DNA of 64,000 nt from Heterodontus francisci (Eukaryota). Made by a program: the position numbers and the translations under genes. Shown here piece by piece: positions 505 to 64,000 of this stretch. The stretch's first letter is position 1, and the number at the start of each line of letters is the position of its first letter. The stretch spans positions 20,804,182 through 20,868,181 of the forward strand of contig NC_090410.1 in NCBI RefSeq assembly GCF_036365525.1, written 5' to 3'. The notes under the pieces are model-generated. The model had not been told where the DNA came from, made no database searches, and was given only the letters and a program-made list of their open reading frames with translations.

Positions 505-670
505 TGAAACAAAAAGCAAAAAAGGAAAAAGACTGCAGATGCTGGAAATCGGAATAGAAAATACACAAGTGAAAAACACAACAGGTCAACCAGCATCTGT
601 GGCGAGAAGAGGGGGTTTAATGTCTTGGTCAGAAATGCTAACTTGATCTGTGTTTCCAGCATCTCCTGTT
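505..670. mobile_element. Degenerate Penelope-derived palindromic element downstream of the CAPNS1 stop codon
   Basis: ctgcagatgctggaaa...tttccagcatct inverted ends; similar to the 34959-35191 family. Confidence 0.55.
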
Positions 671-7000: not shown

Positions 7001-10000
7001 AGCTAATCAAATATTTGTGGAATTTAATTAAATGGGAATCCATGAGAAATACTTTACTGTAATGGAATTCTGTTTTGAGACATCATGCAACAGGCTAAAA
7101 TTGGGCCAGGGTGGTATGAAGGCAAGACACATGGATTTATGCCCCCAGGCTCCTTGTCTGTTAAGAATCCAATTTCTAGTCATGCCATTGCAAGAGAGTT
7201 CTGATGAAGGTTATGCTCAAAACATTAACCTCCTTTTGCTATTGCTGTCTGCCCCACTTCCGGTTTTCCCTGATCTCTCAGATCTGCACTACTTGGATGT
7301 TTGGAGGATGCACCAACAGAAGCTGCTCTAGCCTGCCATCTAGTGTTTGGTGGTGAAACTGCATTAGAAAAGGTCTGGAAGGTTACCTCAATCTTGCCAC
7401 AGGCAGCCATTCAGCCCATCATGCTTGTGCTGGCCCTATGAACAAGCTATCAATAAAGCCAAACACCATTCTTTCCTCCCCACCCCCCCCCCCCCCCTCC
7501 TCTCTCTTTTCCATCACCTGTTCTTCAGCCAAGAATGCTACAAAGAAATACTACCTATAATTATAGAAATTAAGTTTTGGGGAAATCACTATTTACAATA
7601 CAGAAACAGGCCATTTGGCCCAATGCCAGTGTTTATGCTCCACACGAGTCTCCTCCCACTATTTACTTCATCTCACCCAATCAAAATATTCTCTATTCCT
7701 TTCTCCTTCACATGCTTATCTGGCTTCCCCTTAAATGCATCTATACTATTCACCTCAAGCACCATGTGGTAGAGAGTTCCACATTCTCATCACTCTGAAG
7801 TTTCTCCTGAATTCTTTACTGGATTCATTAGGGACTACCTTGTATTCATGGCCACTAGTTTTGGACTCCCAAGTACATCCACCCTATCAAACACCTTCAT
7901 AATTTTTTTTTTAATAAAAGAGACCTCTATCAGATCACTCCTCAGCCTTCTCTTTTTTTTTCTAGAGAGAGAAAACAAAGAGTCCCAGCCCATTCAGAAA
8001 GGGGAAACAGATTAGGAATTAAATGACAAGAGCAGCAATTGGTTACATTCTTTGCCATTTAAACTGGGGAAGTGTTGAAAAATGCTACAAAAACGTGCCC
8101 TAGGCTCTTCCTCACTGTCCCCATTGTGGAGCTACAGGCCAGCCAGTCCATTCCATTCTCACACATCTCACCTGCTGCTTTGAATGCCCCAGGCAGCTCC
8201 TGGCTGTTAATTGTTCCCGATTGGTCAGCATCAAATCTTTTGTAGACAGCCTGCGGAGGAAATTACGCAGTTAGTTCAAACAGCACACATGGCCAGGGTG
8301 GCTACGAGCAGGGCACTGATGGCACAGGCACAATAAAGGGCACAGATTCACATTATTCAGCCGAAACTGTACCTACTCTTTCTGCAAGTGCCCAAACAGA
8401 CAAATGTGTTGCATGCCGCCAAGGCTGGCATTTGTTGCCCATCCTTAATTGCCACTGAACAGAGTGGCTTGCTAGGCCATTTCAGAAGGCAGTTAAGAAT
8501 CAACCACATTGTGGTGGGGCTGGAGTCACATCTAGGCCAGACCAGGTAAAGGACAGCAGATTTTGTTCCCTAAAGGAAAATCAGTGAACCAGATGGGTTT
8601 TTATGACAATCGATGATAGTTTCATGGTACCATTACTGAGACTAGCTTTAAACCCCATTTAGAAAGTTAACTCATGTCTGGAATATTCAGAGAGATGGCA
8701 CTTAAGAAACCTATGGGGACAAAAAACACGTGCAAGTACCCACGTGGAAGCAGAGGTTGGGGAAAAAAAGGTCTGTGGGCCTGCAAGTTGAATGCATCCC
8801 AAAGCTGAATGGTCAGAGAGGGAGAGAATTTACTGGGTGAAGGATAGTTAAAGTTTACTGGTGCTGATTGCAAGGATACCAGAGTATCAGTAACAGGATT
8901 GTGATTTAACGAGACAAATTCAGCAAGATTCATGGTCCACGCTGAGAAACTAGGGAATTACAGCAGAGCTGTGAAATAGAAGCGATAAGAAAAGGGTATA
9001 AAAAGGGAGGTGGTCGACATCTAGACAGAGAGCGTCTTCCACACAATAAACCCACTTGGCATAGTTCAAAGGTCAGAAATAATCACCGTCTCCTGTTGGT
9101 ATTTTATTACCATGTTCTCCTATTACTAGAGTCAAGTTGCAACTTTGCCGATTTGGAATCAGTGTTATAGATTCACTTGAATTTCACTTTATATATAATT
9201 CGACAGGTTTGAGCCCAAATTATATTTAAGAGAGAGTGATCGATTTGGTCAACCCAATCATTGAACATGGGACTTTCTGATCCATATGACTTAGTGACAC
9301 GACAGTCTAATCAGGGCACAATCAGCCCGAGGGAAACAATTCCCCAATATATACAGAGCCATATATAGACACAGGTCTTAGTTACTTACAATTATTTACA
9401 TTCTGCTCAAACGCATGCAACATACCTGCCACAACTTAATCTTGTTCCAAAGGTACTTAAATTCTTCAAAGCCCAGCCTCCCAGTGCTGTCGGCCTAAAG
9501 TGCACAGTTAAGGCAGTGTAACCAACTGAATTAAATACACCAGACACTCTCCATTACAGCTTACTCAACCAAAGGCTTCAAACAGGCCTCGAGTTGGGAA
9601 TCTCCAATACAGACATATTTAAACTTTAAAAGTGAAGCAAGCCCACCCTCCAGGGCTCAATCTTCCTAGTCAGCAGCTCAAACAGCAGATAGCCCCTCCA
9701 ACTTCTGACGGTGCAGTCACACTTCTGTACGGATGCCCAACACTTGACCCAGGTAAGCATTTACAGGTGGAACCCTGGATGTCAAAAGTATCAGCAGGCT
9801 ATTTAATTGAGAACATTGGGTGCAATGGGACAAGCCAATTGCTCCAGTCCAATTCAGTCCCAGCATGGATCATTATACACAACTTGCATTTACATAGTAT
9901 TTTCAATGTAGTAAAAGGTCCCAAAAGTACTTCACAGGAGCGTTAATAGACATAATTGGACACCAAACACACAAGCATTTTGGCAGAAGGAATAGAGAGG

Positions 10001-13000
10001 CAATATATACTTAATGGCACAGTTCTAAAGAGCATGCAGGAACCCAGGGATGCATTTGCATCAATCTTTGAAGGTGGCAAGACATATTGAGAGAGTAGTT
10101 AGCAAAGCATATGGGATCTTGGACTTCATAGAGGAATTGAGTACAAAAACATAATTATGCTGAACCTTTATAAAGCTCTGGCTAAGCCCCAACTGGAGTA
10201 TTGGGTCCAATTCTGGTCACCACACTTTAAGAAGAGTGTGAGAGTCCTTGAGAGGGTGCAGTGGAGATTTACCAGGATGGTTCCAGGGCTGGAGGATTTT
10301 AGTTACAAGGTTAAGTTGGAAAAGCTGAGTTTGTTCTCCTTAGAATAATGGAGATTCAGGGGAGATTTAATAGAAGTGTACAAGATAATCACAGGCTTAG
10401 ATAAAGGCAGACAAGGAAAAACTGTTCCCATTAACAAATAGTACTCAGACTAGGGGACACATTGAAAGTAATGGGCAAAGATGATGTGGGGGAATTTGAG
10501 GAAGCACTTTTTTTTGCATAGCAGTTGGTAATGACCACAAGAGTGGTGGAAGCAGAGACGATCAACAACTTCAAGAGGAAGTTGAATGGCCACCTGAGAG
10601 AAATAGACTTGCAGGGCTACGCGGAAAATAGAGCCGGGGAGTGGGACTCACTGCATAGCTTTGTGGAGAGCCAGCATGGACTCGATGGATCAAATGGCCT
10701 CCTTCTGTGTCATAAATGAGACTCAAAGGAGACTTCTGGACAGATGACCAAAAGCTTGGTCAAAGAGGTATACTTTAAGGAGCATCCTAAAAGGAGGAAT
10801 GAGGAAGTTAAGGAAGGGAATTCTAGAGCTTAGGGCCTCGACAGCTGAAAACATGGCCACCAATAATGGCGTGAAGAAATTTGGGGATGTACAGGTCAGA
10901 ATTGGAGGAGTTCTCAAAGGGTTGTAGGGTTTGAGGTGGAAACAGAGCAGTTGAGGCTTTGGAGGGATTTGAACAGAAAATGAGAATTTTAAGTGTAAGA
11001 CATCACTGGACCAGGAGCCAATGTAGGTCAGTGGTAATTGGGGTGTTGGGAGAACAGGACTTGGTGAAAATTAGGTTACAGGCAACAGAATGAACAAGTT
11101 TATAGAGGGTGAAAGATGGAAGGATTATAACAATATCAGCAACTTGTATTTATATATCACCTCTGATGTAATAAAATATTCCAAGGTGCTTCACCGGAGC
11201 ATTAGAAAACAATACGATTCACATAAGGAGACATTGCAGCAGGTGTCCAAAAGCTTGGTCAAAGAGGTCAGTTTTAAAGATTGTCTTCGAAAGAGAGAGG
11301 GAGGTAGAGAAGTGGAGAAGTTAAGGAATGGGAAGGTATTCCAGGGCTTAGCCAGCTGAAGGCACGGCCAACAACGGCAGAGTCATTACAATCCGGGATG
11401 CTCAAGAGGCCAGAATTGGAGGAGCGCAGGTATCTCAAGAGGGTTGCGGGCTGGAGACTAGAAATAGAGAGGGACGAGGCTATAGAGGGGATTTGAAAGC
11501 GAGGATGAGAATTTTAAAATCGAGGCACTGCTTAACCTGGACATAAGTCACTGAGCAAAGGGGTGATTGGGTTTCGGTGCAAGTTAGGACACTGGTAACA
11601 GTGTTTTTGTATGGCAATTCGCTAGCTACAATTAGACAGACAAGAATGGAACCAGGCGAGTGCAGTCCCATCCAGCTGGATGGTAGCAGAGGGGCGTTGA
11701 GGAGGATGGTGTGGTCAACCGTGTCAAAGGCTGCAGGAAAGTGAAGGACAAGGAGGGGTAGTTTACCTGTCAGAGTCACAATGTCATGTGACTTTGACAA
11801 GTGCTATTTCAGTACTGTGGCAGGGACGTAAACCTGACGTTTATTCTGGTTAAACTTCCCTTACCTAAATCAACTCAGATTCTCTAATTTGAGGTGAATT
11901 AATATTTCTGCAACAACCCCCCCTCTGCCCCCGATGAGTCAGCTAACTCAGCAGAAACCAGGGATGACCCATGTGATCTACCCAATCAGTATTCAGCCTA
12001 TTAGAACAAAAGAACTGAGATATTAGAAACAGATGTGACCAACAGCCAACATATTGGAGATGAAGGTTAGTTTTGCCTTTTACAGGAGGATACATCCATG
12101 ACAGCTACCATACTACGGCAGGACTCCAGGCTGAACCCATCAGTCTTCAGATCAGCATCTGCGGCAGAGAACAAAAACGGTCAACATCGCAATTAAATCC
12201 AGGAACCTATTGCATCCAAATGCTTGGCCCACCCAGGGAGCAGGGGCAGAGACCTCAAATCAATAGATTGGCATCTCACTACTGCACTGCTCAAAATTCA
12301 ACACTAATCACTTTAGTGGAACCATTTCTGAAATATCCAATGCCCTAGTGTAAATCAACCAGAAGTGCCTCTTTGGAAAAAAAAAAAGAGGGGCATAACT
12401 AAAAAAACGTAACTATTTTTTGAAAAAAGAAAACAAATGCGAATATTGTTATTGGTATCCACTATGCATTCCAATCGCTGCAGTGGCCATTGGTCACAGA
12501 AGGTAAAGACTATTGCACCATGGGGCGGCACAGTGGCTAGCACCGCAGCCTCACAGCTCCAGCGACCCGGGTTCAATTCTGGGTACTGCCTGCGTGGAGT
12601 TTGCAAGTTCTCCCTGTGTCTGCGTGGGTTTCCTCCGGGTGCTCCGGTTTCCTCCCCCATGCCAAAAGACCTAAAGGTTGATTGGTAAATTGGCCATTAT
12701 AAATTGCCCCTAGTATAGGTAGGTGGTAGGGAAATATAGGGACAGGTGGGGATGCGGTAAGAATATGGAATTAGTGTAGGATTAGTATAAATGGGTGGTT
12801 GATGGTCCGCACAGACTCGGTGGGCCGAAGGGCCTGTTTCAGTACTGTATCTCTAAACTAAACTAAACCTATTATTCCCAGGCAGTCTCCCAGCCAAGTA
12901 ACAGCTAACCCTTACCTTGCTTAGCGTCAAAGATTGAACTGGATCAGACATTGTTTTTAAATCAGATTTAATCAACATGAAACACATTTACATTGTTGTA

Positions 13001-25000: not shown

Positions 25001-28000
25001 ATTGTTCAGTCACTGCCTCAGTACTCCAATGGAGTGTTTGCCAAGATTGTGTGTTCAGGTCTCTGGAATGGACCTTGAACTAAGTCTCTTCCAACTGAGC
25101 TGTTTCTTCACAAACCTGAACTGATTAAACAAATGAAGCTCAGTTATTTTTAAGTGAGCTTACAAGGATGCACATCAACTTGATAATTTTGTACACCATT
25201 AGTGTAAAACTCCTAGCTATACAAGACAATAGATTCTCTGCCTCATTATGGACAATGATAGAAGATTGACAAATGCTGTACCAAACTCCCAATGATAAAG
25301 CTGTCAGGAATTGTTCCCCATGAGGTGTGATGCAACTAACCCGAGGGAAGGGCTAGGCAGCTAATTTACAACATAATGGAGAGGAACCGACCCAGTTAAA
25401 GCCACTCCTGCTGAAACTCTGGGAGAATTCCAAGAATTGAGGGGATTATTTAGCATATGCCACGTCAAAATTCTGGGCATAAAAGTGATTCCCAGGGTGG
25501 AAGGTGCAAAAGATGACAACTTTGCTGCCAATTTCCTCACTTCCTATCCTAGAGCACCAGTATTAGCCTCCAATGCTCTGTCCAAGTGGCTTTTTGTCAG
25601 TTATGGGCCCAAACAGCAAGTAGCAACTGGACATTATTAGCCCAACCTCAGGTTTACTAACCCAATGGAAGGAGGTGGCCAGGAGTTGTCACGAGATAGT
25701 GAGCAGAAATCTAAATTTCCTCTCTGTACTCTGGGATCCTGAAACCAATCACAGAATCCCTACTGCCACTCAAGCAGAGATCAGAGATCAGTTATCAGGA
25801 CAAGGATCAGACCCAGGATCTCTGGTTGAAACAAATCAGTGCCATCTAAGGAAGAGCATTAACCCAGTATGGACCCCATAGAAAGACTTGCATTTAAATA
25901 GTGCCTTTCGTGACCTCAGATTCCAGAGTGCTTTGTAGCCAATGAAGTACTTTCCAAGTTAAGTCACTGTTGTAATTTAGAAGCTGCAACAGCCAATTTG
26001 CACACAGCAAGCTCCCACAAACAGTAATGCAATGACAAGATAATTTTATGATTTTTTTTTTAATGTTAGTTGAGGAATGAAACACTGAAGAACTCCCCTG
26101 CTTTGCTTTGAAATAGTGGCCACAGGATCTCTTGCTCCCGACTGAAGGGCCAGTTGGGGTCTTGGTTTATCAACTGAATACCGGCAACTCCAACCATGCA
26201 GCACTCCCTAAAACTGCAGTGGAATGTCTGCCTGGATTTTGTGCTCAAGTACCTGAACGCACAACCTTCTGTCTTAAAGAAAGAGCTACCCAATCAGCCA
26301 CAGACAGTATTTTCTCCTTTACTGGGTCCTATCATTTTTTTTTTTTTTTAATATATATTCCTTCATGGGATGTGGGTGCCGCTGCCTAGGCTAACATTTA
26401 TTGCCCATCAGGTGGTGGTAAGCTGCCTTCTTGAACCACTGCAGTCCATGTGGGGCAAGTACATCAACAGTGCTGTTAGGAAGGGAGTTCCAGGATTTTG
26501 ACCCAGCGACAGTGAAGGAACAGCGATATAATTCCAAGTCAGGATGGTGTGTGGCTCGGAGGGGAACTTGCAGCTGGTGATGTTCCCATGTATCTGCTGC
26601 CCTTGTCCTGCTAGGTGGTAGAGGTCGCATGTTTGGAAGGTGCTGTCAAAGGACCCTTGGGTGAGTTGCTGCAGTGCATCTTGTAGATGGTACACACTGC
26701 TGCCACTATGCATCTGTGAAGGAAATGAATGTTTGTGGATGGAGTGCCAGTCAAGCAGACCGCTTTGTTCTGGATGGTGTCGAGCTTCTTGAGTGTTGTT
26801 GGAGTTGCACCCATCCAGGCAGGGTGGTGTTCCACCACATTCCTGACTTGTGCCTTGTAGATAGACAGGCTTTGGGGAGTCAGGAGGTGAGTTACTTGCT
26901 GCAGGATTCCTAGCCTCTGAACTGCTCTTGTAGCCACAGTATTTATATGCCTACCCCAGTTCAGTTTTTGGTCAATGGTAGCCCCTAGGATGTTGATAGT
27001 AGGTGCTTCAGCGATGGTAATGCCATTGAATATCAAGGGGAGATGGTTAGATTCTCTCGTGGGAGGTGGTCATTGCCTAGCAGTTGTGGTGTGAATGTTA
27101 CTTGCCATTTATCAGCCCAAGCCTCTCTGCATTTCTACATGGACTGCTTCAGTATCTGAAAAGTCACAAATGGTGACGACCATTGTAATCAGCAAACAAA
27201 TTAACGAAGAACTGATGAAAGGTCACTGACCTGAAACATTAACTTTGATTCTCTCTCCACTGATGCTGCCGGACCTGCTGAGTATTTCCAGCAGTGTTTG
27301 CTTTTATTTCTGATTTCCAGCATCTGCAATATTTTGCCTTTATCTGAGCAGGTTATTGCTGAGCAAGTGCCGCTTGGTAGCACTGTCGATGACACCATCC
27401 ATCATTTTACTGATGATTGAGAGTAGACTGATGGGGCAGTAATTGGCCAGGTTGGATATTTCCTGCTTTTTGTGTACAGGACATACCTGGGCAATTTTCC
27501 ACATTGCTGGGTAGATGCCAGTGTTGTAGCTGTACTGGAACAGTGTGGCTCGGGGTGCGGCAAGTTCAGGAGCACAGGTCTTCAGTACTATTGCCAGAAT
27601 ATTGTCAGGGCCCACAGCCTTTGCAATATCCAGTGCTTTCAGCTGTTTCTTGATATCACATGGAGCGAATCGGATTGGCTGAAGACTGGCATCTGTGATG
27701 CTGAGGACCTGAAGAGGAGGCTGAGATGGATCATCCACTCATTACTTCTGGCTGAAGATTGCTGCAAATGCTTCAGCTTTATCTTTCGCACTGATGTGCT
27801 GGGCTCCCCAATCATTGAGGATGGGGATATTTGTGGAGCCTCCTCCTCCAGTTAATTGTTCAATTGTCCACCATTCACAACTGGATGTGGCAGGACTGCA
27901 GAGCTTAGATCTAATCCGTTGGTTTTGAGTACTATTCTGTCAGGAGGCAGCCTCCCACGTACTTTCTCCAATGTCGCTCTGCATCTCATCAGGGAGCATA

Positions 28001-34020: not shown

Positions 34021-34945
34021 TGTTATGGCCACATGGTGAGAGGCATGGGTGGTTCCCACTGTTCAACTCCCACCTGACTGCAGCAAGGTGTTTTTGTTAT
34101 TAGGGTTTAAACCCTTTGTATTTTATTTGTCAAATAAACAGACAGGCTTTCTTGTAGCTTTAAAAAATATTAATTATTTATGGAGCAATATGCCTTATCC
34201 CGAAATTGTGCCAACCACATCCACTCACACATTCACTCGCACACACAAACACAAGAAGAGACAGATAGAAAAGAAAAGGGGTAAGTGGTTTTTAAGTGAG
34301 GTAGGGTTTTGGGGTTCCCGGTAAACCTGTTGAATTCTGTTGAAAGTCAAGTTCTCATTGGTTGCAGGCCTGAGATATTTGTAGATTTCTCTGTGGGTTA
34401 AAAGTTCAGATTGAAGACAGAAGATCAGTTCTAATTCGTCGATGCACAAGTTAAAAATGCAGGATTCTCAGCAGGAAGCCTCCCTCTGGCTTGCTGGATT
34501 TTCTCCCAGTTCTTAGCTGGACAAGCTTTTTGGTGATGCTTCTTTCTGGGTCTCTCTCTCTCTCTCTCTCTGCCTCAAGGGCTGCTTTTTTTAAGGTAAA
34601 ACATTTGTCACTTCAGATTCTCGAAGGAGATGCTTTGGTTTTTCCCCCATGGTACTCACACAATGACCCAGGATGAGAATAATCCAGTTATGAATTTTCC
34701 ACTTCATACCTTCCTTGTTTCAGTAGAACTCATTCAATTTAGGAATGTTTCATGATGGGTGTAATTGACACTTCTCAACCTGGTTAGTTATCCTTTGTTC
34801 TAAACAGACAGCATGGCAATGTTCAAATACATATGCAGCCATCCTTTGCAGCATTGTCCAATTTTTTAAAAGGTAAAATCAATTTTTATAACCCTTCAGT
34901 GTGAGTCTGTATTTTTTCATCATCACACTTCTCATATGCACAACA
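34021..34945 (-). mobile_element. Solo LTR (925 bp)
   Basis: TGTTATG...CACAACA ends; perfect 4-bp TSD GAAG (34017-34020, 34946-34949) in the host CR1; strand inferred. Confidence 0.8.
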
Positions 34946-34958
34946 GAAGATTAATGTC

Positions 34959-35191
34959 ATAATAATAAAAGCAAAATACTGCGGATGCTGGAAATCTGAA
35001 ACAAAAACAAGAAATGCTGGATTCACTCAGCAGGTCTGGCAGCATCTGTGGAAAGAGAAGCAGAGTTAACGTTTCGGGTCAGTGACCCTTCTTCGGAACT
35101 CAGGTCACTGACCCGAAACGTTAACTCTGCTTCTCTTTCCACAGATGCTGCTAGACCTGCTGAGTGAATCCAGCATTTCTTGTTTTTGTTT
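34959..35191. mobile_element. Penelope-derived palindromic mini-element
   Basis: 93-bp inverted arms (34995-35087, 35103-35195; one mismatch), 15-bp spacer, 15-bp TSD CAGAAGATTAATGTC (34944-34958, 35192-35206). Confidence 0.85.
35063..35101 (-). ncRNA. Minimal type-I hammerhead ribozyme-like motif (U4C variant)
   Basis: GAGTT-CCGAAGA-A-GGGTC-act-GACCC-GAAA-CG-TT-AACTC: stem I, core, stem II and palindromic ACGT stem III. Confidence 0.5.
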
Positions 35192-36899
35192 CAGAAGATT
35201 AATGTCCCCCACACTTATTACATGTGCCTTGGTTACAAGCTCTAATTATTTCTTGTTTAATGCTCTGTCCAACAGTACTATTAGCGGGCCTATAAACTAC
35301 TTCCTACAGCTTTTTCTGATCTTATTATTCATAATTTCCACCAATACTGATTCTACTTACTGATCATCTGAGCCAAGATCCTGGCTCACGACTGTTCTTA
35401 TGTTATCCTTTACTATCAGGGCTACTGCTCCTACTTTTTCCTTCTGCCTGTATTTTTGAAATGTTGTGTGTCCTGGAATATCTATTTCCCAATCTTGTAA
35501 CCACATCTTTGTAATGGCAATTAGATCTGAACTATTTATCTTTATTTGTGCCGCTAGTTCATCTCCCTTATTATGAATGCGTAAAGTTGAGGGGCAACAT
35601 GCAGACGCGAAATAGGAGGATTCCAAAGGATAGATCCTTGAGGGACACCAGAGATGCTTTGCACCTTCACATAAAGAGATGTTTATTTTATCTTTTTACT
35701 ACCATCCTTTGCATGGACCTTATTCGCTGATGCACTATTATCATTAAACTCTCTTCCTGTCCCACTTTGCCTGTCTTTACCTAAATCAGTACACTGCACT
35801 ATGCTTTGACTTTTCTCTTTAAATTCCATTATCTTTCCCTCACCTGACCCTCGTCCACCACCCCCTTTTAGTTTAAAGCCCTATCCACAGCTTTAGGTAT
35901 ACTATACGCCAGAACACTGATCCCAGCCTGTAAATGGATTCCAACAGAACACCTCCTTCTTTCCCCAGTACTGGTGCCAGTGGCCTATGAATCAAAACCC
36001 TTTCTTCCCAGACCACTCTTTGAGCTATGCTTTTAATTCTCTAATCTCCAATTGGTGCATGGCTCAGGTAACAATCCAGAGATTATTATCTTTGAGGTTC
36101 TGCATTTTAATTTTTACCATAACTCCCTTAAATTCTCTCAGCCAAACATCTTTCCTAGTTCTGTCTATGTCGTTGGTTCCAATGTGGACCACGATAACTG
36201 AATCCTTCCCCTACTACTCCAAGTTCGTCTCCAGCCACAAGGAGATATTTTCAACCCTGACACCGCGCGGGCAACACAACCTTCGGAATTCCCAGTCGTG
36301 GCTGCTGAGAACAGTATCCATTCCCTATACTGTCCCCTTTCATTAACACGCTCCTTTTCACTCCCCCAACTTGGATGGCTTCCTGCACCATGGTGCCATG
36401 GTCAGTTTGCCCATCCATCCTGCAGTGTTTGTTCTCATCCACACAGGTAGCAAGTACCAGGGATCAGTGTTGGTCAAAGTCAAGGGCCGAGTCTCCTCTA
36501 TCACCTGCCTGGCTTGCAGTCACACCCTCCTGTCCCTGACTGTTGACCAACTCAAACGTTTTACTTAACCTAAGGGTGTGACTGCCTCCTGGAACAAAGT
36601 ACCTTTCTCTAGTTGCTCTCCTGTCTCCTTCATGCCCTCTCCGAACTCATCTTACCTATGAGACCCATCTTCTGCTCCCGCGACCCTATTTCCACTAAAC
36701 CTCTAACCTCCCCTCTTGGTCCCCATGTCGGCTGACATTAACAGTTTTCTCTTCTCAGGTGTTTTTTAATTGTATATTAAATGTGTTTAATTGTATGCAG
36801 GTGGTAGAGATGAACTGGGGATTCACTTGAGCACATAAAAAGAGACACTTATTGAAACCCTGGTATGGTTGAGTTAGGTGGTATATACTGTAAATATAT

Positions 36900-37845
36900 T
36901 TATTTCACCCAGAAGGTGGTCGGGGTCTGGAACCTACTGCCTGAAAGGGTGGTAGATGCAGAAACCCTCATCATATTTAAGAAGTACTTGGATATGCACT
37001 TGAAGTGCTGTAACCTACAGGGCTATGGACCAAAAGCTGGAAAGTGGGATTAGGCTCACTCAATGGCTTTTTTACAGCTACAACAAAAACAATAGCCTGA
37101 ATGGCCTGCCTCTGTGCCATAAATATCTATAATTCTATGGTAGTTTCATCAAAAATGTAGTTGTAGATTAATCCTAAAGAGTTTGTGGATCTCTCTCTCA
37201 TGTAATAGTAGAACATGTTGTGTGTGTGCAGCTTAAAGTATTAACAGGGGAATCACATTAAAGAATTCAAACAATGCACCCCAAATGAGTAATAGCTATA
37301 AAGGTGTGCCTGCCTGCAGACACATACCATGAGGCTGATTCATTGCTAATAATGGCCTCCTCCCACCTCATTACATATATTGTTTCAATAATGTGCTGAT
37401 TTGAAATTATTTCTTCCTCTTCTTTAACAAGGTATTAACAAGGGTTGTTTTCCCTGGAACTGAGGAGGCTAAGGGGTGACTTGATTGAGGTGTACAAAAT
37501 TATGAGAGACCTAGATACAGTGGACAGGAAGGACCTGTTTCCCCTGGCGGGGAGGTCAGTAACGAGGGGACACAGATTTAAGGTGATTGTTAGAAGGATT
37601 AGAAGGGACATGAGGGGAAACTTTTTCACCCAGAGGGTGGTGGGTGTTTGGAATTTGCTGCCAAGAACAGTGGTGGAGGCAGAGACCCTCAATTCTTTTA
37701 AATGGTACCTGAAGTGCTGTAACCTGCAGGGCTATGGACCAGGTGCTGGAAGGTGGGATTAGTTTGGGCGTCACAGCTGGCACGGACATGATTGGCTGAA
37801 TGGCCTCCTCCTATGCTGTACTTTTTCTTTGGTTCTATGGTTCTA
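36900..37845 (+). mobile_element. Two CR1 3' fragments (~36900-37135 and ~37440-37845)
   Basis: FTQKVVGVWNLLPERVV and RRLRGDLIEVYKIM motifs. Confidence 0.85.
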
Positions 37846-38370
37846 TAAGTTAATAGGTTAATGTCTCCATGAACACAGTGTATCAGAGAATTTACTGAGA
37901 ATGTGTTAAGCGTTCGTACATTAATATCATTACCGGGCAATTTCAAGACATTTACGATGATGTGAATGTAGTGTTTGTTGTAAAATCCTTTCCCTTTTTT
38001 ATTCATTCATGGGATGTGGGCATCACTGGCTAGGCCAGCATTTGTAGCCCATCCCTAACTGCCCAATTAGCTTGGAGTTGAGGTACAGATCAGCCATGAG
38101 CTAATCGAATAGACTCTGAAGGACGAATTGCCTCCTCCTGGTCCATGTTCCTAGAAAAAGAGACCAATGCTCTGTCAAATAATTATAACAACGACAACTT
38201 CTATTTATATAGAGCCTTTAATGTAACAAAATCGCCCAATGCTCTTCACAAGAACATGATATGAGTATGACACCGAGCCACTTAAGGAGATATTAAAAGC
38301 AAAATACTGCAGATGCTGGAAATCTGAAATACTCAGCAGGTCAGGCAGCATCTGTGAAGAGAGAAGCAGA

Positions 38371-38405
38371 GTTAACGTTTCAAGTCTGTGACCTTTCATC
38401 AGAAC
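38371..38405 (-). ncRNA. Minimal type-I hammerhead ribozyme-like motif
   Basis: GTT-CTGATGA-A-AGGTC-aca-GACTT-GAAA-CG-TT-AAC. Confidence 0.6.
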
Positions 38406-38416
38406 CCAAGTTTATC

Positions 38417-38454
38417 AGTTCTGATGAAAGGTCACGGACCTGAAATTGTTAACT
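38417..38454 (+). ncRNA. Minimal type-I hammerhead ribozyme-like motif
   Basis: AGTT-CTGATGA-A-AGGTC-acg-GACCT-GAAA-ttg-TT-AACT. Confidence 0.55.
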
Positions 38455-39960
38455 CTACTTTTCTCTCCACAGATGCCGCCAGACCTGCCGAATATTTCCA
38501 GCACTTTCTGTTTTTATTTAAGGAGATATTAAGGCAGGTGACCAAAAGCTTGGTCAAAGAGTTTTAAGGAGTGACTTAACGGGGAAAAAAGTGAGGTCGA
38601 GAGGTGGAGAGCTTTAGGAAGGGAATTCCAGAGCTTGGGACCTAGACAGTTAAAGGAATTAGAGGAGTGCAGATAGCTCAGAGGTTTGTGGGTCTGGAGG
38701 AGAATACAGGGATAGGAAGGGGCGAGACCATGAAAGGATTTGAAAATCAGGATGAGAATTTGAAAATGAAGGCATTGCTTGACCGTGAGCCAATGTAAGT
38801 CAGAGAGCACAGGGGGTGATGGGTGAACGGGACTCGGTGCGAGTTAGGACATGGGCAGCAGACTTATGGATGAGCTTAAGTTTACGGAGGGTACGATGGG
38901 AGATGCCAGCCAGGAGTGTGTTGTAATAGTCGAGTCTAGAGGTAACAAAGAGGGTGAGGGTTTCAGCAGCAGAAGAGCAGAGGCAGGTGATGCTACAGAG
39001 ATGGAAATATGCAGTCTTAGTGATAGATGTGTGGTTGAAAGCTCATCTCATGGTCAAATATGAGGTTGTGAACAGTCTGGTTCAGCCTCAGACAGTAGAC
39101 AGGGAGCGGGATGGAGTCAGTGGCTAGGGAACGGAATTTGTAGCAGGGACCGAACACAATGGCATCAGTCTCCCCAATATTTAATTGAAAGAAATTTCTC
39201 TCATCCAGTTCTGGACATCAGGTAATTTAGAAACAGTGGCGGGGTAAGGGGAGAGGTGGTGGTGAGGTAGAGTTGGGGGTCATCAGCGTACATGTGGAAA
39301 CTGATGTGTTTTCTGATGATGTCACTGAGGGGCAACATGCAGATGAGAAATAGGAGGATAGATCCTTGAGGGACACCAGAGGAAGAGAAGCCATTGATGG
39401 TGATTCTCTGGCCATCATTAGATAGATAAGAATGGAACCAGGTGAGAGCAGCCCCACCTAGCTGGATGATGGTGGAGAGGCTTTGGAGGGGTATGGTGCC
39501 GTTAATTGTGTCAAAGGCTGCAGACAGGTTGAGAAGGACGAGGATGTCATTTGCGACTTTGATAAGAGCCACTTCGTTGCTGTGGCAGGGGTGGAAACCT
39601 GATTGGAGGGTTTTAAACTTAGAGTTCCGGGAAAGGTGGGCACGGATTTAGAAGATGACAACATGTTCAAGGACATTTGAGAGGAAAGGGAGGTTGGAGA
39701 TGTGGCAGTAGTTTGCAAAGACAGATGGTCAATGGTTGTTTTTTGAGGAGAGGGGTGATGATGACAGATTTGAAGGAGAGAGGGACAACACTGTTACACC
39801 AACAGCCAGTTGGTGAAGAATCTTTACTTAGTCTTACAGTTATTTACATAATAAGTAGCACAATGTCCAGCTCAACTGAGTCCTGCGAGACAAAGTGCTT
39901 AACTCAGGGAATTTAGTAAGTGTGGGAATTCGGTGCAGTGAAGGAGGAGGTGCTGTTTAT

Positions 39961-43095: not shown

Positions 43096-43448
43096 GGGGC
43101 GGCACAGTGGCACAGTGATTAGCACCGCAGCCTCACAGCTCCAGCGACCCGGGTTCAATTCTGGGTACTGCCTGTGTGGAGTTTGCAAGTTCTCCCTGTG
43201 TCTGCGTGGGTTTCCTCCGGGTGCTCCGGTTTCCTCCCACATGCCAAAAGACTTGCAGGTTGATAGGTAAATTGGCCATTATAAATTGCCCCTAGAATAG
43301 GTAGGTGGTAGGGAAATATAGGGACAGGTTGGGATGTGGTAGGAATATGGGATTAATGTAGGATTAGTATAAATGGGTGGTTGATGGTCGGCACAGACTC
43401 GGTGGGCCGAAGGGCCTGTTTCAGTGCTGTATCTCTAACTAACTAACT
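43096..43448 (+). mobile_element. HE1-type V-SINE, full length
   Basis: A/B boxes, V domain, (ctaa)n tail. Confidence 0.92.
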
Positions 43449-46600: not shown

Positions 46601-48015
46601 GATTTTATCGCAGAGCACTTGGAGAACAGTGGTAGAATCGGGCAGAGTCAGCATGGATTTATGAAAGGGAAATCATGCTTGACAAATCTACTAGAATTCT
46701 TCGAGGATGTAACTAATAGAGTTCATGAGGGGGACCTAGGGGATGTGGTTTATTTGGACTTTCAGAAGGCTTTCGACAAAGTCCCACATAAGAGATTAGC
46801 GTGTAAAGTTAATGCGCATGGGATTTGGGGTAGTGCATTGCAATGGATAGAAAATTGGTTGGTGGACAGGAAACAAAGAGTAGGGATAAATGGGTCTTTT
46901 CCGAATAACAGACAGTGACTAGTGGGGTACCGCAGAGACTGGCGCTAGGACCCCAGTTATTCACAATATACATTTACGATTTAGATGAGGGAACTAAATG
47001 TAATATTTCCAAATTTGCAGATGACACAAAACTGGGTGGGAGAGTGAGTTGTGAGTTGTTTAGATCTGACTAGACTTTATGTTCACGGGCATTTTCGTGC
47101 TTTCTTTTGACTCTGAACATAGCAAGAGGCTGCCTCCTTGTTAGAGAGGCTTCAGGGTGATTTGGACAAGTTGAGTGAGTGGGCTAATGCATGGCAGATG
47201 CAGTATAATGTGGATAAATGTGAGGTTTTCCACTTTGGTAGCAAAAACAGGAAGGCAGATTATTATCTGAACGGCTATAAACTGAGAGAGAGGACTATGC
47301 AGTGAGACCTGGGTGTTCTCGTACATCAGTCGCTGAAGGTAAGCATGCAGGTGCAACAGGCAGTAAAAAAGGCAAATGGTATGTTGGCCTTCACAGCAAG
47401 AGGAGTCGAGTACAGGAGCAGGGATGTCTTGCTGCAATTATACAGGGCCTTGGTGAGGCCACTTCTGAAATATTGTGTGCCGTTTTGGTCTCCTTATCTG
47501 AGGAAGGATGTTCTTGCTATATAGGGAGTGCAGCGAAGGTTTACCAGACTGATTCCTGGGATGGTGGGACTGATGTATGAGGAGCGATTGAGTCAGTTCG
47601 GATTATATTCACTGGAGTTCAGAAGAGTGAGGGGGGATCTCATAGAAACCTAGAAAATTCTAATAGGACTTGACAGGGTAGATGCAGAAAGGAAGTTCCC
47701 GATGGTGGGAGAGTCCAGAACCAGGGGTCATAGTCTAAGGATACGGGGTAAACCTTTCAGCACTGAGATGAGGAGAAATTTCTTCACCCAGAGAGTGGTG
47801 AGCCTGTGGAATTCGCTATCACAGAAATCAGTTGAGGCCAAAACATTGTATGTTTTCAAGAAGGAGTTAGATATAGCTCTTGGGTCTAAAGGGATCAAAG
47901 GGTATGGGGCAAAAGCGGGAACAGGTTACTGAGTTGGATGATCAGCTATGATCCTAATGAATGGTGGAGCAGGCTCGAAGGCCGTTTGGCCTACTCCTGC
48001 TCCTATTTTCTATGT
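43673..48015 (+). mobile_element. Near full-length CR1/HER1-type LINE (5'UTR, ORF1, endonuclease, RT, 3' tail), inactivated
   Basis: ORF1 at 44089; endonuclease VGITETWL and IMGDFN; RT QHGFMKGKSCLTNLLEFF, DFQKAFDKVPH, FADDTKL; ctatgttt tail; ttccc duplication; many stops and frameshifts. Confidence 0.92.
44089..44889 (+). pseudogene. CR1 ORF1 protein: CxxC...CxxC zinc finger, leucine zipper and SGNH/GDSL esterase; disrupted
   Basis: CFSC...CRKC, LEAQVSEL, VIEDSIVRG (GDS changed to EDS), CCLPGA, VHIGTNDIG; the C-terminal DGLHL lies after a frameshift. Confidence 0.85.
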
Positions 48016-49737: not shown

Positions 49738-50860
49738 CATAGTTGTGCAACCTTTTTGAGCGGTGTGCCGCATTAGGATTTACGCTCGGCCGGGTGGGGC
49801 CGATGAACAAATTTTGAAAGATAAAGGCATTAAAAATTTATCTTACTAATAAAAACAACAACAAATGTGCATTTTTGTTAAGAAGCTTTAAATGAGAAGA
49901 CTAATTTATTGACTTACTTCTCGTCATTATATTTAAAACTGATTTAGTGACATAGCTGGCATTGTCTTTGCTTGCCTAAATAGTCAATCTCTGCCCACAC
50001 AGTTGATGTAGTGATGCAGAGTATTCTGGATAGATATCCATCTGTCAGGAGTGATCTTGATCTCTCTCTCTGTCTCTATCTCTCTTTCTCTCCCTGTGTT
50101 CCCCCTCTCTATGTTGTTCCCCTCCTCTCTGTGTTGTCCTCACTCTCTGTGTTCCCCCTGCCACCTCTGTCCCCTGCCTCTCTCTGTCTCCCCTCTCACT
50201 CTCTGTTCCCCCCTCTCTCTCTCTGGCCCCTCTCTGTTTCCCTCCCTCTCTTTGTTTCCCCCCCTCTCTCTCAGTTTCCTCTCTCTGTTTGTTTCCCTCC
50301 CTCTCACTCTGTTCACTCCCCCCTCTGTCCTCTCTCTCTCTGTTTCCCTCTCTCTCTTTGTTTCCCCCCCATTCTCCCAGTTCCCCCTTTCTCTTTGTTT
50401 CCCTCGCTCTCAGTTCCCCCTCTCTCTCTTTGTTTCCCCCCTCTCTCTTTGTTTCCCTCCCTCTTTGTTTCCCTCCCCTCTCTCTCTGACAGTTACACTG
50501 AGCGGAAGCGCTCAGCACAGAAGCTTAGTGGTTCGTCAGTTTGTTTAAAAACATTGTGCTGTCAGTTTCACAGCTGACAGCTGCTGAAGCAGGAACGCGC
50601 TTCCCAACTTTGGACAGTTTTGGGGTTTTCCAGTGGGCTTTTAAAAAAAGTCAGAAAACCCCAATTTGGGAAGCGCATTCCTGCTTCAGCAGCTCTCGGC
50701 TGTGAAACTGACAGCGTGATTTTTTAAAAAGGGAAATTTACCAGTCACGGAGCCCTGGCGAGGATGAGGAACGCCCCGGGTACAGTTTACGCCCGCGGGC
50801 TGGATGGAAGCCTTTAGTAGGCCGAATTCTGGCCCATGGGCCATATGTTGGACAACCCTG
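49738..50860 (-). mobile_element. Non-autonomous hAT (Charlie/SPIN-like) DNA transposon
   Basis: TIRs CATAGTTGTGCAAC / CAGGGTTGTCCAAC; perfect 8-bp TSD ATCTATGT (49730-49737, 50861-50868); transposase C-terminal remnant SRSLLTDGYLSRILCITTSTVWAEIDYLGKQRQCQLCH* at 50060-49944. Confidence 0.9.
50061..50488. repeat. CT-rich low-complexity polypyrimidine tract
   Basis: Degenerate ctctctgtttcccc units over ~430 bp. Confidence 0.95.
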
Positions 50861-51664: not shown

Positions 51665-51785
51665 ATCCTGAAATGTTAACTCCACTTCTCTCTCCACAGA
51701 TGCAGCCTGACCTGCTGAGTATTTCCAGCACTTTTTGTTTTTATTGCAGATTTCCAGCATCTGCAGTATTTTGCTTTTATTTTAG
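51665..51785 (+). mobile_element. Penelope-derived single-arm fragment
   Basis: ctgaaatgttaact...tttccagcatctgcagtattttgctttt, matching the 34959 arm. Confidence 0.75.
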
Positions 51786-51811: not shown

Positions 51812-52178
51812 TTTTTTTTTTAGCGATACAGCACTGAAACAGGCCCTTCGGCCCACCGAGTCTGTGCCGAACATCAACCACCCATTTATACTAATCCTAC
51901 ACTAATTTCATATTCCTACCACATCCCCACCTGTCCCTATATTTTCCCTACCACCTAACTATACTAGGGGCAATTTATAATGGCCAATTTACCTATCAAC
52001 CTGCAAGTCTTTGGCATGTGGGAGGAAACCGGAGCACCCGGAGGAAACCGGAGCACCCAGAGGAAACCCACGCAGACACAGGGAGAACTTGCAAACTCCA
52101 CACAGGCAGTACCCGGAATTGAACCGGGGTCGCTGGAGCTGTGAGGCTGCGGTGCTAACAACTGCGCCACTGTGCCGC
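51812..52178 (-). mobile_element. HE1-type V-SINE with an internal 19-bp tandem duplication
   Basis: ggaggaaaccggagcaccc occurs twice at 52021-52058. Confidence 0.92.
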
Positions 52179-52323
52179 ATGTTAAATGGGGACTGAATTC
52201 ATTAACAAGCGTCTGTTCTTTTTTGTTGCTTTTTTCTCTTTCAGGTCTCTTTATGTCTGCTTCCTGTATCTATGTACAGATTCCTGAAAAATATGGGAAT
52301 TCTGGTTAATCTGGGAACAAATA

Positions 52324-52658
52324 GGGCAGCACAGTGGCGCAGTGGTTAGCACTGCAGCCTCATAGCTCCAGCAACCCAGGTTCAGTTCTGGGTACTGCCT
52401 GTGCGGAGTTTGCAAGTTCTCTCTGTGATCGCGTGGGTTTCTGCCGGGTGCTGCAGTTTCCTCCCACAGCCAAAGACTTGCAAGTTGGTAGGTAAATTGG
52501 CCATTGTAATTTGCCCCTGGTGTAGGTAGGTGGTAGGAGAATGGTGGGGATGTGGTAGGGAATATGGGATTAATGTAGGATTAGTATAAATGGGTGGTTG
52601 ACGGTCGGCACAGACTCGGTGGGCCGAAGGGCCTGTTTCAGTGCTGTATGATTCTATG
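52324..52658 (+). mobile_element. HE1-type V-SINE
   Basis: A/B boxes, V domain and CR1-like tail. Confidence 0.92.
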
Positions 52659-52689
52659 ACTAACAGTATACACCTACACAAAGCTAGCA

Positions 52690-55600: not shown

Positions 55601-56485
55601 GTGATCGCCGGAGCTGGCGGACAGCCATAAAGGCGGGGCTAAAGAGTGGCGAGTGGAAGAGACTTAGCAGTTGGCAGGAAAAAAGACAGAAGTGCAAGGA
55701 GAGAGCCAACTGTGTAACAGCCCCAACAATTAATTTTATCTGCAGCGCCTGTGGAAGAGTCTGTCACTCTAGAATTGGCTTTTATAGCCACTCCAGGCGC
55801 AGCTCCACACACCACTGACCACCTCCAGGCGCTTACCCATTGTCTCTCGAGACAAGGAGGCCAAAGAAGAGAAGATTAATAGGGGCATAGAGTACAAGAG
55901 CAAGGAAGTTATGTTGAACTTGTATAAGACTCTAGTTCGGCCTGAGCTGGAGTATTGCGTCCAGTTCTGGGTGCCGCACTTTAGGAAAGACACGAGGGCA
56001 TTGGAGAAAGTAGAGAAAAGAATCACGTGAATGGTTCCAAGGATGAGGAACTTCAGTTATGAAGATAGAGTGGAGAGGTTCAGACTGTTTTCCTTGTAGA
56101 AGAGAAGGCTGAGAGGTGATTTGACAGAGGTATTCAAAATCATGAGGGATCTGGACAGAGCAGATAGAGAGAAACTATTCCCACTCATGAAAGGATTGAG
56201 AACGAGAGATTTAAAGTATTTGGTAAGAGAAGCAAAAGTGACATGAGGAAAAACTTTTTCAAGCAGCGAATTGTTAAGGTCTGGAATGCGCTGCCTGACA
56301 GTGTGGTGGAGGCAGGTTCAACTGAAGCATTCAAAAGGGACTTAGACAGTTATATGAAAGGGAAGAATGTGCAGGGTTATAGGTGGAAGGTGGGGGAATG
56401 GAACTGAGGGAACTGATCTTTCAGAGAGACAGTGCCGACACGATGGGCCGAATGGCCTCCTTCTGCACTGTAATGAATCTGTGAA
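52690..56485 (+). mobile_element. CR1 remnants: 5'UTR, esterase ORF1 and endonuclease to ~55290, and a 3' end at 55875-56485; MITE inserts at ~53795-54465 and ~55296-55530
   Basis: VIHVGTNNIG esterase (ORF 53412..53735); VGITETWL (ORF 54568..54912); LEYCVQFW near 55950. Confidence 0.8.
55535..55872 (+). mobile_element. RTE-clade LINE 3' end
   Basis: ORF 55555..55818 LWESVASDRRSWR...CSACGRVCHSRIGFYSHSRR; gaag tail. Confidence 0.88.
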
Positions 56486-63320: not shown

Positions 63321-64000
63321 TAATACACATATGGATTCATACTGACAGGTGTACAATGACTTCTGCATTCTTAAGTCGCTAACTGAAATTTATGGCAAAT
63401 TACATATAAAGTGTGTTTTAGGCCTTGTGATTTTCAGTTGGATTACAGCACAATATTGCCTGACTCTGTGCATCATCGCTGGTGCTGCATGTGAGTCCTT
63501 ATCAAAAATCGGAGGTTTTACTTAATCTTTTCCTTCCCATTGTTCATTATTGGAAAGGTTTCTATCTCCTTGTGCATCTATATAGTACAGTTTGACTTGC
63601 ATTTGACTGTACATTCCTGTGTCAATGCACCAGCCGAAAACAATTATCGGTACTTACTGTGATAATTGCAAATGTAATCATTGCCTTTTGTAAAAATGTT
63701 GGTTTTCTCCCCTCCCTCCTTAAGCAATGCTCCCACTAAGCTGCTCAGGCACACAGCAGCCTAGAAGGTAACGCACCGAGGTTTTGTTCCAGGATAAATG
63801 CCACACAAAAAAATTTAAAGGGGCCATGCACTGAAAAATCTTTCCAGGCACTAAATTTTAAAGGGAACATTGTCCATAAAGCGTTGACTTCCCACTGGGA
63901 TGTAGTTTCATGGGCACTGGCTGCTTTTGGGGAACTTGCATAAGTGATCATTCTGCTCCTGTGAGTCAAGATGATGTGTTGGTGGAGGAGGAGCAAATTC

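What the first reader, a model, noticed from the sequence alone, without database searches (positions are those of the whole stretch)
34959..38517. Family of short palindromic retroelements with back-to-back minimal hammerhead ribozyme motifs
Seen: two ~230-bp elements (34959-35191, 38297-38517) are inverted-repeat hairpins, each with a 15-bp TSD, which is a retrotransposition signature rather than a MITE signature. At the hairpin centre are motifs of the form stem I-CUGAUGA-A-stem II-GAAA-(CG)-UU-stem I. 38297 carries two, one per strand. Stem II covaries between copies (AGGTC/GACCT vs GGGTC/GACCC), and stem III is reduced to the palindrome ACGT. Single-arm or degenerate copies lie at 27200, 51665, ~7197 and ~505. 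Established: Penelope-like elements (PLEs) carry minimal hammerheads in their pseudo-LTRs, often form inverted 5'-truncated insertions, and such ribozymes are proposed to cleave as dimers. Inference: this is a high-copy shark PLE-derived family dispersing self-cleaving RNA motifs on both strands. It may be little characterised in sharks.
Basis: partly seen in the sequence, partly recalled or inferred. Interest (0 to 1): 0.7.

Follow-up and report, generated by a model that had tools for sequence, protein, structure and literature searches.

The report
Mirror-image Penelope stubs in likely shark
The two hairpin-shaped inserts are real, but they are the shortest leftovers of an abundant, known kind of jumping gene (Penelope-like), likely made when it copied the first 100-137 letters of its uncut RNA onto both cut DNA strands, so their hammerhead-ribozyme motifs are probably inert passengers rather than a new mobile ribozyme family.

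Summary
Observation mostly right. Both palindromes and their exact 15-bp TSDs are real. They are not a separate family. Each arm is the hammerhead-bearing pLTR leader of a protein-coding Penelope-like element (RT plus GIY-YIG; Neptune-type zinc linker) with about 380,000 insertions in this 6.0-Gb genome, about a fifth of them head-to-head inverted. Inverted pLTR, one-sided tail, TSD and opposite-strand minimal hammerheads are all published PLE features. Copy ends point to a mechanism: arms start at the first or second base of stem I (G excess just before, as from a cap), show no strong peak at the ribozyme cut site, and end at +100 or +137, one of each in 18 of 18 young pairs. Corrections: 34959 carries one motif, with a U4C/U7A core that marks the youngest subfamily (at least 42,000 copies); the 38297 plus-strand motif has a broken stem III; covariation is a single pair; read-through RNA is predicted to bury the ribozyme in a long hairpin. 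Cleavage untested. This scan has already noted the same kind of element, and a U4C core, in other genomes (177 notes, at least 16 genomes). Low-to-moderate interest.

The parts
34944..34958 (.). E1 left TSD copy (15 bp)
   Evidence: exact match to 35192-35206
34959..34964 (.). short TAA-type stutter between the TSD and the tail end; likely added at priming
   Evidence: sequence; a similar addition in L101; origin inferred
34965..35100 (-). E1 long arm: pLTR leader +1..+136 with tail, youngest subfamily
   Evidence: same diagnostic bases as full-length 5' ends L195, L198, L202
35064..35100 (-). E1 minimal hammerhead-like motif, variant core CCGAAGA (U4C, U7A), stem II GGGUC/GACCC, stem III ACGU; predicted cut between 35068 and 35067
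   Evidence: descriptor hit; fold; cut site inferred from hammerhead numbering
35101..35102 (.). 2-nt junction; the base next to +1 reads G in element sense, as expected for a copied cap
   Evidence: sequence; class statistics; interpretation inferred
35103..35191 (+). E1 short arm, +14..+102, no tail, no CUGANGA-type core
35192..35206 (.). E1 right TSD copy
38282..38296 (.). E2 left TSD copy (15 bp), inside a copy of another dispersed repeat
38297..38405 (-). E2 long arm +2..+135 with tail and an internal ~22-nt deletion; older subfamily
38370..38406 (-). E2 minimal hammerhead motif, canonical CUGAUGA core, stem II with a G-U wobble, stem III ACGU; predicted cut between 38374 and 38373
   Evidence: descriptor hit
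38406..38410 (.). E2 junction spacer
   Evidence: sequence
38411..38517 (+). E2 short arm, about -6..+100, no tail; hammerhead-like motif 38417-38454 with broken stem III
38518..38532 (.). E2 right TSD copy
27206..27343 (+). single arm, about +5..+136; core present, stem I 5' strand missing, stem III CpG decayed, no TSD found
51667..51780 (+). single arm +23..+136, no core, no TSD found
525..625 (-). old degenerate single arm, about +27..+130
   Evidence: nhmmer E 4e-11
7197..7233 (+). degenerate hammerhead-like 37-mer; family link weak
   Evidence: sequence; not detected by the family HMM

Best explanation
The two hairpins are minimal head-to-head insertions of the pLTR leader of a protein-coding Penelope-like retrotransposon, likely built at the moment of integration and likely inert afterwards. 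Shown: arms are the element's +1..+100/+137 segment, which lies downstream of the RT/GIY-YIG ORF in 3' pLTRs and upstream of the ORF start (about +172) in full-length copies; 3' ends fall at two sites; inverted pairs almost always use one of each; TSDs are mostly 12-15 bp; 5' ends pile up at +1/+2 with a G excess just before. Inferred: transcription starts at the initiator-like CAGTT, so the hammerhead is the first 37 nt of a capped RNA; the endonuclease cuts both strands about 14 bp apart; each 3'-OH primes reverse transcription, one at +137 and one at +100, most simply on the same uncut RNA; both cDNAs run to or towards the cap and are end-joined, bluntly or through microhomology and short templated patches. 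If only one side is copied, a single arm results; if a 3' pLTR is primed, a long arm results. The hammerhead is selected, if at all, in the source elements and not in these stubs.
For: ORF link: GIY-YIG-like ends upstream of arms; a 634-aa open frame in L076 hits RVT_1 (E 5e-9, above cut-off) and GIY-YIG (E 0.006, below cut-off); 26 of 30 loci taken by the ORF 5' region carry the pLTR from at least +86 through +136 just upstream, and the other 4 only its last ~20-35 nt. Abundance: 50 insertions, 11 inverted, in 80 sampled 10-kb stretches, about 376,000 (279,000-495,000) and 83,000 (41,000-148,000) genome-wide; 52,829 exact intact motifs, control 0; 137 exact back-to-back centres, control 0. 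Asymmetry: 18 of 18 independent young pairs flagged by the script have ends at about 100 and 137; 10 of 11 random pairs; none of 15 pattern-selected pairs has two tails. 5' ends: 28 of 30 and 23 of 30 loci with a mismatch in front begin at +2 and +1, about 11,300 of 42,102 young arms by extrapolation; G precedes the +2 start in 54 of 100 against about 30 expected (p 5e-7). Cut site: 2,063 mismatches at +33 against 1,562 at +32, mostly point mutations; by my reading 5 of 30 and 3 of 30 are true truncations. Arms share a subfamily-diagnostic triplet in 23 of 26 pairs (26% expected if independent). 19 of 50 listed centres have a 1-nt spacer with both arms complete to +2, which a fold-back primer could hardly give. 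Literature: anole Poseidon cuts and extends both strands, initiates at two internal sites that define the tail, is predicted to be a dimer, and does not need hammerhead cleavage (PMC11167929, parts 1-2 of 4 read).
Against: No transcript start was observed: the runs laid were contigs only. E2's own plus arm begins about 6 nt upstream of +1 and E1's plus arm at +14, so not every arm is a clean run-off. One random pair (L136) has two tails. One pair (L249) differs at two diagnostic sites, which suggests two templates, and concordance is also expected if one source was active at a time. Five of 15 pairs have a short arm ending at +19..+49 rather than +100. CAG|TT also resembles a 3' splice site. 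PMC11167929 saw no strand difference in start-site use in vitro. GIY-YIG Pfam score is below the curated cut-off, and no RT tree was built.
Confidence: 0.72

Rival explanations
1. Same PLE origin, but the second arm arises by fold-back self-priming of the first cDNA (or from an antisense template), after which the hairpin is joined to the other target end.
For: Proposed for inverted PLE junctions in PMC3846280 (passages read). Many young centres read CTTCTTC-C-GAAGAAG, a near-palindrome that could snap back: most of the first 100 of 4,044 H-TTCC sites have C in front. Arms are usually concordant. Short +19..+49 arms fit partial snap-back copying.
Against: Single arms end at +100 about as often as at +137, so +100 is a priming site in its own right. 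19 of 50 centres keep both arms to +2 with a 1-nt spacer. The same near-palindrome would also let two cDNA ends anneal.
Confidence: 0.15
2. One reading: a non-autonomous palindromic family that moves as a unit and spreads active self-cleaving RNA on both strands.
For: Real TSDs; 137 exact back-to-back centres; 52,829 intact-looking motifs; one compensatory stem II pair (G-C 108, A-U 91, G-U 52, A-C 1 of 252).
Against: Centres vary from copy to copy; arm lengths form a continuum up to full-length elements; the ribozyme fold is predicted to be buried in a -122 to -178 kcal/mol hairpin, and the double-hammerhead fold (-13.7) is far above the dimer minimum (-24.8) for the E1 motif; the stem-III CpG is intact in only 35 of 74 older copies.
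Confidence: 0.06
3. The sharp 5' boundary is not a transcription start but a strong RT stop at the base of the folded or protein-bound hammerhead, or a splice junction, in a longer RNA.
For: The boundary coincides exactly with the 5' strand of stem I; CAG|TT follows a pyrimidine-rich tract; in D. virilis the intron end maps to helix I (PMC4209133, parts 1-2 of 4 read).
Against: No shared upstream exon sequence in 60 junction loci; an RT stop at a structure is expected on its 3' side; the G excess fits a cap; 24 of 30 C-AG loci read through the site.
Confidence: 0.12
4. MITE (DNA transposon) with long terminal inverted repeats.
For: Short, hairpin-shaped, high copy.
Against: TSD length varies (10-16 bp, mode 14), ends are asymmetric, most copies are single arms (39 of 50), and the sequence is the pLTR of an RT element.
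Confidence: 0.01

Closest known systems
EN+ Penelope-like element insertions with an inverted 5' pLTR, one-sided tail and TSD (Adineta vaga Pen2a_Av, PMC3846280; general scheme in PMC8557442 Fig. 2 legend)
   Same: Head-to-head inverted pLTR, a 30-40-nt tail on one arm only, TSD, heavy 5' truncation, partial tandems in front of full-length ORFs.
   Different: Here the body is often lost altogether, leaving ~230-bp pLTR-only palindromes in the tens of thousands; TSD about 14 bp against 8-10 bp.
[quoted passage not shown]
   Same: 4-bp stem I, extra nucleotide between 9 and 10.1, palindromic 15.2-16.2 with no loop; mostly dispersed single motifs; opposite-strand pairs 100-700 bp apart were already noted there.
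   Different: Stem II is 5 bp; the youngest subfamily has U4C plus U7A, which the parts I read do not list (supplements not seen); sharks are not named in the parts read.
Poseidon_Ac (PAc) of Anolis (Frangieh et al. 2024, PMC11167929)
   Same: Two internal RT start sites bounding the tail, about 110-140 nt past the hammerhead; both strands cut and extended; cleavage not needed for insertion.
   Different: PAc's ORF starts inside the hammerhead; here a conserved stop precedes the first conserved ATG at about +172, and a CX4CX2C linker points to Neptune rather than Poseidon.
Non-LTR retrozymes (bioRxiv 10.64898/2026.07.22.740005; part 1 of 5 and passages read)
   Same: Short non-coding PLE-pLTR derivatives with type I hammerheads, reported from one chondrichthyan genome.
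   Different: Retrozymes are head-to-tail tandem repeats with same-strand ribozymes; these are head-to-head with opposite-strand motifs.

Membership tests
EN+ Penelope-like element | single ORF with an RT domain | tested here: met
   L076 634-aa frame, RVT_1 E 5.4e-9, 36.5 bits over cut-off 29.6; parent element, not the stubs
EN+ Penelope-like element | [quoted passage not shown] | tested here: met
   Pfam GIY-YIG E 0.0059, below cut-off; VYCIxCxxCxxLYIGET motif in many copies; criterion from PMC8557442 passages
EN+ Penelope-like element | pLTR formed by partial tandem, with optional inverted 5' copy and 30-40-nt tail | tested here: met
EN+ Penelope-like element | hammerhead motif in the pLTR | tested here: met
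EN+ Penelope-like element | RT groups with PLE/telomerase RTs in a tree | not tested
   no reference RTs in hand; PDB sequence search found nothing at E 0.01
Neptune clade | CX2-5CxxC zinc-finger linker between RT and EN | tested here: met
   CNRRRCNTC in the translations; criterion from PMC8557442
Neptune clade | placement by RT phylogeny | not tested
   no tree built
Penelope/Poseidon clade | linker zinc finger absent | tested here: not met
   linker present
minimal type I hammerhead of PLEs | core CUGANGA ... GAAA ... UH | tested here: inconclusive
   met in E2 (both strands for CUGAUGA); not met in E1 (CCGAAGA); 69 of the first 100 genome matches carry C4
minimal type I hammerhead of PLEs | short stem I, stem II, extra base after A9, palindromic stem III | tested here: met
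   E1 minus and E2 minus; stem III broken in E2 plus
minimal type I hammerhead of PLEs | covariation across copies | tested here: inconclusive
   one pair (10.1-11.1) shifts A-U / G-U / G-C with 1 mismatch in 252; other stem II pairs and stem I show no compensatory change; one historical event, pattern-biased sample
minimal type I hammerhead of PLEs | self-cleavage (as dimer or protein-assisted) | not testable with these tools
   no genomic sign of a major cleaved template
Rfam hammerhead families | covariance-model match | tested here: not met
   no hammerhead hit up to E 5 in the window
non-LTR retrozyme | head-to-tail tandem units, each with a same-strand hammerhead | tested here: not met
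   E1, E2 and the 11 sampled pairs are head-to-head
MITE | symmetric terminal inverted repeats with a fixed short TSD | tested here: not met
   asymmetric ends and 10-16-bp TSDs

The most novel reading that the evidence does not exclude
These stubs record how Penelope-like elements integrate: both cut target strands prime on one capped, uncut RNA leader, always one at each of two fixed sites, and the two run-off cDNAs are joined, which would explain the inverted pLTR and the one-sided tail of the whole class. The most recent burst (at least 42,000 copies) came from a source whose hammerhead core is changed at positions 4 and 7 while stem II was tightened to G-C, so the motif may be kept as a 5' RNA structure or protein-binding site, or as a slowed ribozyme, and not for fast cleavage.
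Probability: 0.5. Interest if true: 0.55.

Novelty: new member of a known kind. Interest (0 to 1): 0.3.

Why it matters
As a discovery it is ordinary: every structural feature is a published PLE trait. Its value is as a very large natural data set for two open questions named in the papers read: how PLEs make inverted pLTRs with a one-sided tail, and whether the pLTR hammerhead must cleave for mobility. The end statistics give sharp predictions (start at +1/+2, one arm per start site, no peak at the cut site) that an existing in vitro PLE system can test, and the C4/A7 subfamily is a natural mutant for a cleavage assay. Tens of thousands of ~100-bp perfect hairpins could also be a source of double-stranded RNA when they fall in introns (inference, untested).

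Tried and rejected
Rfam scan: no hammerhead, only sub-threshold miRNA hairpins. Isolated motif folds are no more stable than shuffles (z -0.6 to +0.65). PDB sequence search with the ORF: nothing. Cap test on the older subfamily was uninformative, because 9 of 30 loci were long copies with a changed base. Divergence by core class separated the subfamilies only weakly (mean 0.028 against 0.049, medians alike, biased sample), so age rests on CpG retention (94 of 103 against 35 of 74). The first concordance pattern was wrong and returned 0 pairs; redone. TSD null: 11 of 100 random position pairs scored 13 or more, probably tandem-repeat loci (not checked), so single TSD calls are weaker than the peak at 14. 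Sequencing runs: only contigs were offered; 4 of 22 laid; the leader has far higher summed depth than the ORF start, which copy number alone explains, so nothing on expression, start or strand. Translation from the AUG inside the core: a conserved stop follows and the young subfamily lacks this AUG, so rejected as the ORF start unless spliced. Literature: 'Penelope + hammerhead + shark' gave 4 papers, none on this family by title or abstract start; 'Penelope + twin priming + pseudo-LTR' 0; 'Penelope + transcription start + initiator + hammerhead + intron' 0; 'hammerhead + U4C' 1. Lunse et al. 2017 and Nelson and Uhlenbeck 2008 were not held, and no supplements were read, so shark motifs or a C4 variant may already be in print there; Repbase and Dfam were not available. 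MITE and retrozyme readings rejected as above.
Full report
Observation. E1 (34959-35191) and E2 (38297-38517) are inverted repeats, each with an exact 15-bp TSD. For E2, other copies of the repeat it interrupts carry the target once with no insert. E1's arms match at 88 of 89 nt; E2's are about 88% alike. A hammerhead descriptor that allowed U or C at position 4 found the minus-strand motifs of E1 and E2 and 12 more in 800 kb of sampled genome, all of one family, against 0 in each of five Markov controls. E1 has one complete motif, with core CCGAAGA; its plus arm starts inside stem II. E2 has CUGAUGA on both strands, but the plus copy has lost the ACGU palindrome. Rfam gives no hammerhead match. 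Copies at 27206, 51667 and 525 are single arms; 7197 is a degenerate 37-mer not detected by the family HMM.

What the arms are. I number the element from +1, the A of AGTTC at the start of stem I. The genome is 6.0 Gb; 'shark' is my inference from its size and from repeat types I recall, not from a call. Among the 30 best relatives of the E2 arm, several run upstream into a GIY-YIG-like C-terminus. Thirty loci taken with that upstream region carry long RT plus endonuclease frames, most followed by the same +1..+100/+137 segment. A 634-aa open frame in L076 hits RVT_1 (E 5e-9) and, below cut-off, GIY-YIG (E 0.006). It has a CX4CX2C linker, which PMC8557442 (passages read) says is absent in Penelope/Poseidon and reduced in Nematis, so the element is Neptune-like by motif; no tree was built. 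In 30 loci taken by the ORF's 5' region the leader continues past +137 into an ORF whose first conserved ATG lies at about +172; many are preceded by a partial tandem. The arms are therefore the pLTR leader of an ordinary EN+ PLE.

Abundance. Eighty 10-kb stretches at round coordinates on 40 large contigs hold 61 arms in 50 insertions, 11 of them inverted pairs; 8 of the 11 have a 13-15-bp TSD. That extrapolates to about 376,000 insertions and 83,000 pairs. An exact intact-motif pattern matches 52,829 times and an exact back-to-back pattern 137 times, with 0 for both reversed controls. Palindromes are a minority and grade into long-plus-short pairs and full-length copies, and their centres differ from copy to copy, so they are not a family that moves as a unit.

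Ends. 3' ends cluster at about +100 and +137, in single arms too. In 18 of 18 independent young pairs flagged by the script (23 arms, 5 seen twice) one arm has each end; so do 10 of 11 random pairs, counting one short arm that ends at +74 (L136 has two tails); of 15 pattern-selected pairs 9 are 100/137, 5 have a +19..+49 arm with a 137 arm, and 1 is 36/99. TSD length is 14 in 17 of 36 arms with a TSD call. For the young subfamily, 42,102 exact matches split into 24,667 with the genomic C-A-G in front, 7,015 with a mismatch at -1, 6,376 at +1 and 4,044 at +2. Of 30 loci each, 28 begin at +2 and 23 at +1, while 24 of the C-A-G class extend 20 nt or more upstream: about 11,300 arms (27%) start at exactly +1 or +2 with a foreign base in front. 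That base is G in 54 of 100 (+2 class; p 5e-7 against composition) and in 12 of 23 (+1 class). No shared upstream exon is visible. The simplest reading is a capped RNA that starts at an initiator-like CAGTT; copying of a cap as an extra G is established for other RTs (recalled). D. virilis Penelope has an internal, initiator-type promoter in this region (PMC2377424, passages read). At the predicted cut site (33|34) there are 2,063 mismatch matches against 1,562 one base upstream; most are point mutations, and by my reading 5 of 30 against 3 of 30 are truncations, two of the five joined through the AACT of stem I. A small excess cannot be excluded, but cleaved RNA is not the main template.

Mechanism. 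PMC11167929 (parts 1-2 of 4 read) shows that an anole PLE protein cuts and extends both strands, starts reverse transcription at two internal sites that bound the tail, is predicted to dimerise, and does not need hammerhead cleavage. Joined with the counts above, the best model is twin priming: one target end at +137, the other at +100, both copying towards the cap, then end-joining. Arms share a subfamily-diagnostic triplet in 23 of 26 pairs, which fits one RNA but also one active source. 19 of 50 listed centres keep both arms to +2 with one base between them, which argues against fold-back priming, the explanation offered in PMC3846280 (passages read). Against the model: E2's plus arm starts near -6 and E1's at +14, one pair is clearly discordant, one has two tails, and no start site was observed (contigs only).

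The ribozyme. Across 252 distinct motifs in the fetched loci (a pattern-biased set), only pair 10.1-11.1 covaries: G-C 108, A-U 91, G-U 52, A-C 1. This is one subfamily-level event; it fits selection on the fold in source elements but is not family-wide covariation. Of the first 100 genome matches, 64 read CCGAAGA, 17 CUGAUGA, 14 CUGAAGA, 4 CCGAUGA and 1 CCGAGGA (counted by hand; first 13 Mb of one contig, and exact matching favours young copies). The stem-III CpG is intact in 94 of 103 C4/A7 copies but 35 of 74 U4/U7 copies, so C4/A7 is the younger class and dispersed copies decay freely. PMC3088659 (passage read) reports that U4C lowers activity in vitro yet still allows viroid infection. 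That U4 and U7 contact each other in the active fold is recalled, so compensation by A7 is only a possibility. In read-through RNA of E1 or E2 the predicted stem II pairing is 0.0 inside a -122 to -178 kcal/mol hairpin, and opposite-strand motifs cannot dimerise in cis. The stubs are therefore unlikely to act as ribozymes.

Comparison and novelty. Inverted pLTR, one-sided tail and TSD are the typical PLE layout (PMC3846280, PMC8557442). Minimal hammerheads in PLE pLTRs, mostly dispersed and sometimes paired on opposite strands 100-700 bp apart, are in PMC4209133 (parts 1-2 of 4 read). Retrozymes differ in being head-to-tail (bioRxiv 10.64898/2026.07.22.740005, part 1 and passages). My searches found no paper on this shark family or on twin priming in PLEs, but two relevant papers were not held and no supplements were read. 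This scan's own notes describe the same palindromes, the run-off reading and a U4C core in other genomes (177 notes in at least 16 genomes; none matched by sequence); I had reached my reading before opening them, and they are not independent support. Verdict: a new member of a known kind, real and abundant, interesting mainly as a readout of PLE integration. Interest 0.3.

Noticed in passing
G000 genome-wide; window 35064-35100 (-): The youngest subfamily has hammerhead core CCGAAGA (U4C, U7A) with G10.1-C11.1, in at least 42,102 exact copies; both single variants also occur.
   Followed up: partly
L193-L221, about +140 to +172 of the element: A conserved in-frame stop, a pyrimidine tract and CAG|G lie just before the first conserved ATG; this looks like a 3' splice site of a 5'-UTR intron. 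No donor was mapped.
   Followed up: no
window 34959-34964; L101 about 1402-1412: Short (TAA)n stutters between the TSD and the tail end, as if the RT repeated the priming motif.
   Followed up: no
element +70..+137: The tail is an imperfect repeat of the preceding ~35 nt; both priming sites follow a T-rich TTTTATT-like motif, and +54..+127 folds as a long hairpin that is not more stable than shuffles.
   Followed up: partly
G000:C1:235.84-236.08 Mb (listing); L274-L276 (about 12-kb period): Clusters of the same junction variant, suggesting local tandem or segmental amplification that carries PLE stubs along.
   Followed up: no
L188 (G000:C2:91947500-91957400), L191: Complex multi-copy PLE loci with several direct and inverted partial copies within 7 kb.
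   Followed up: no
window 2275, 10726, 11225, 28516, 38520, 58164: Another dispersed repeat family (D13) hosts E2; it is common in the sampled stretches too and was not identified.
   Followed up: no
window 4979-5279, 12527-12865, 43109-43447, 52337-52664; 37435-37837, 47593-47840, 56075-56315, 62924-63321: Repeat families that look like the shark tRNA-derived SINE and CR1-type LINE 3' ends (names recalled, not tested); 52040-52464 is an inverted pair of the former.
   Followed up: no
window 50190-50434: Tandem low-complexity array (D2).
   Followed up: no
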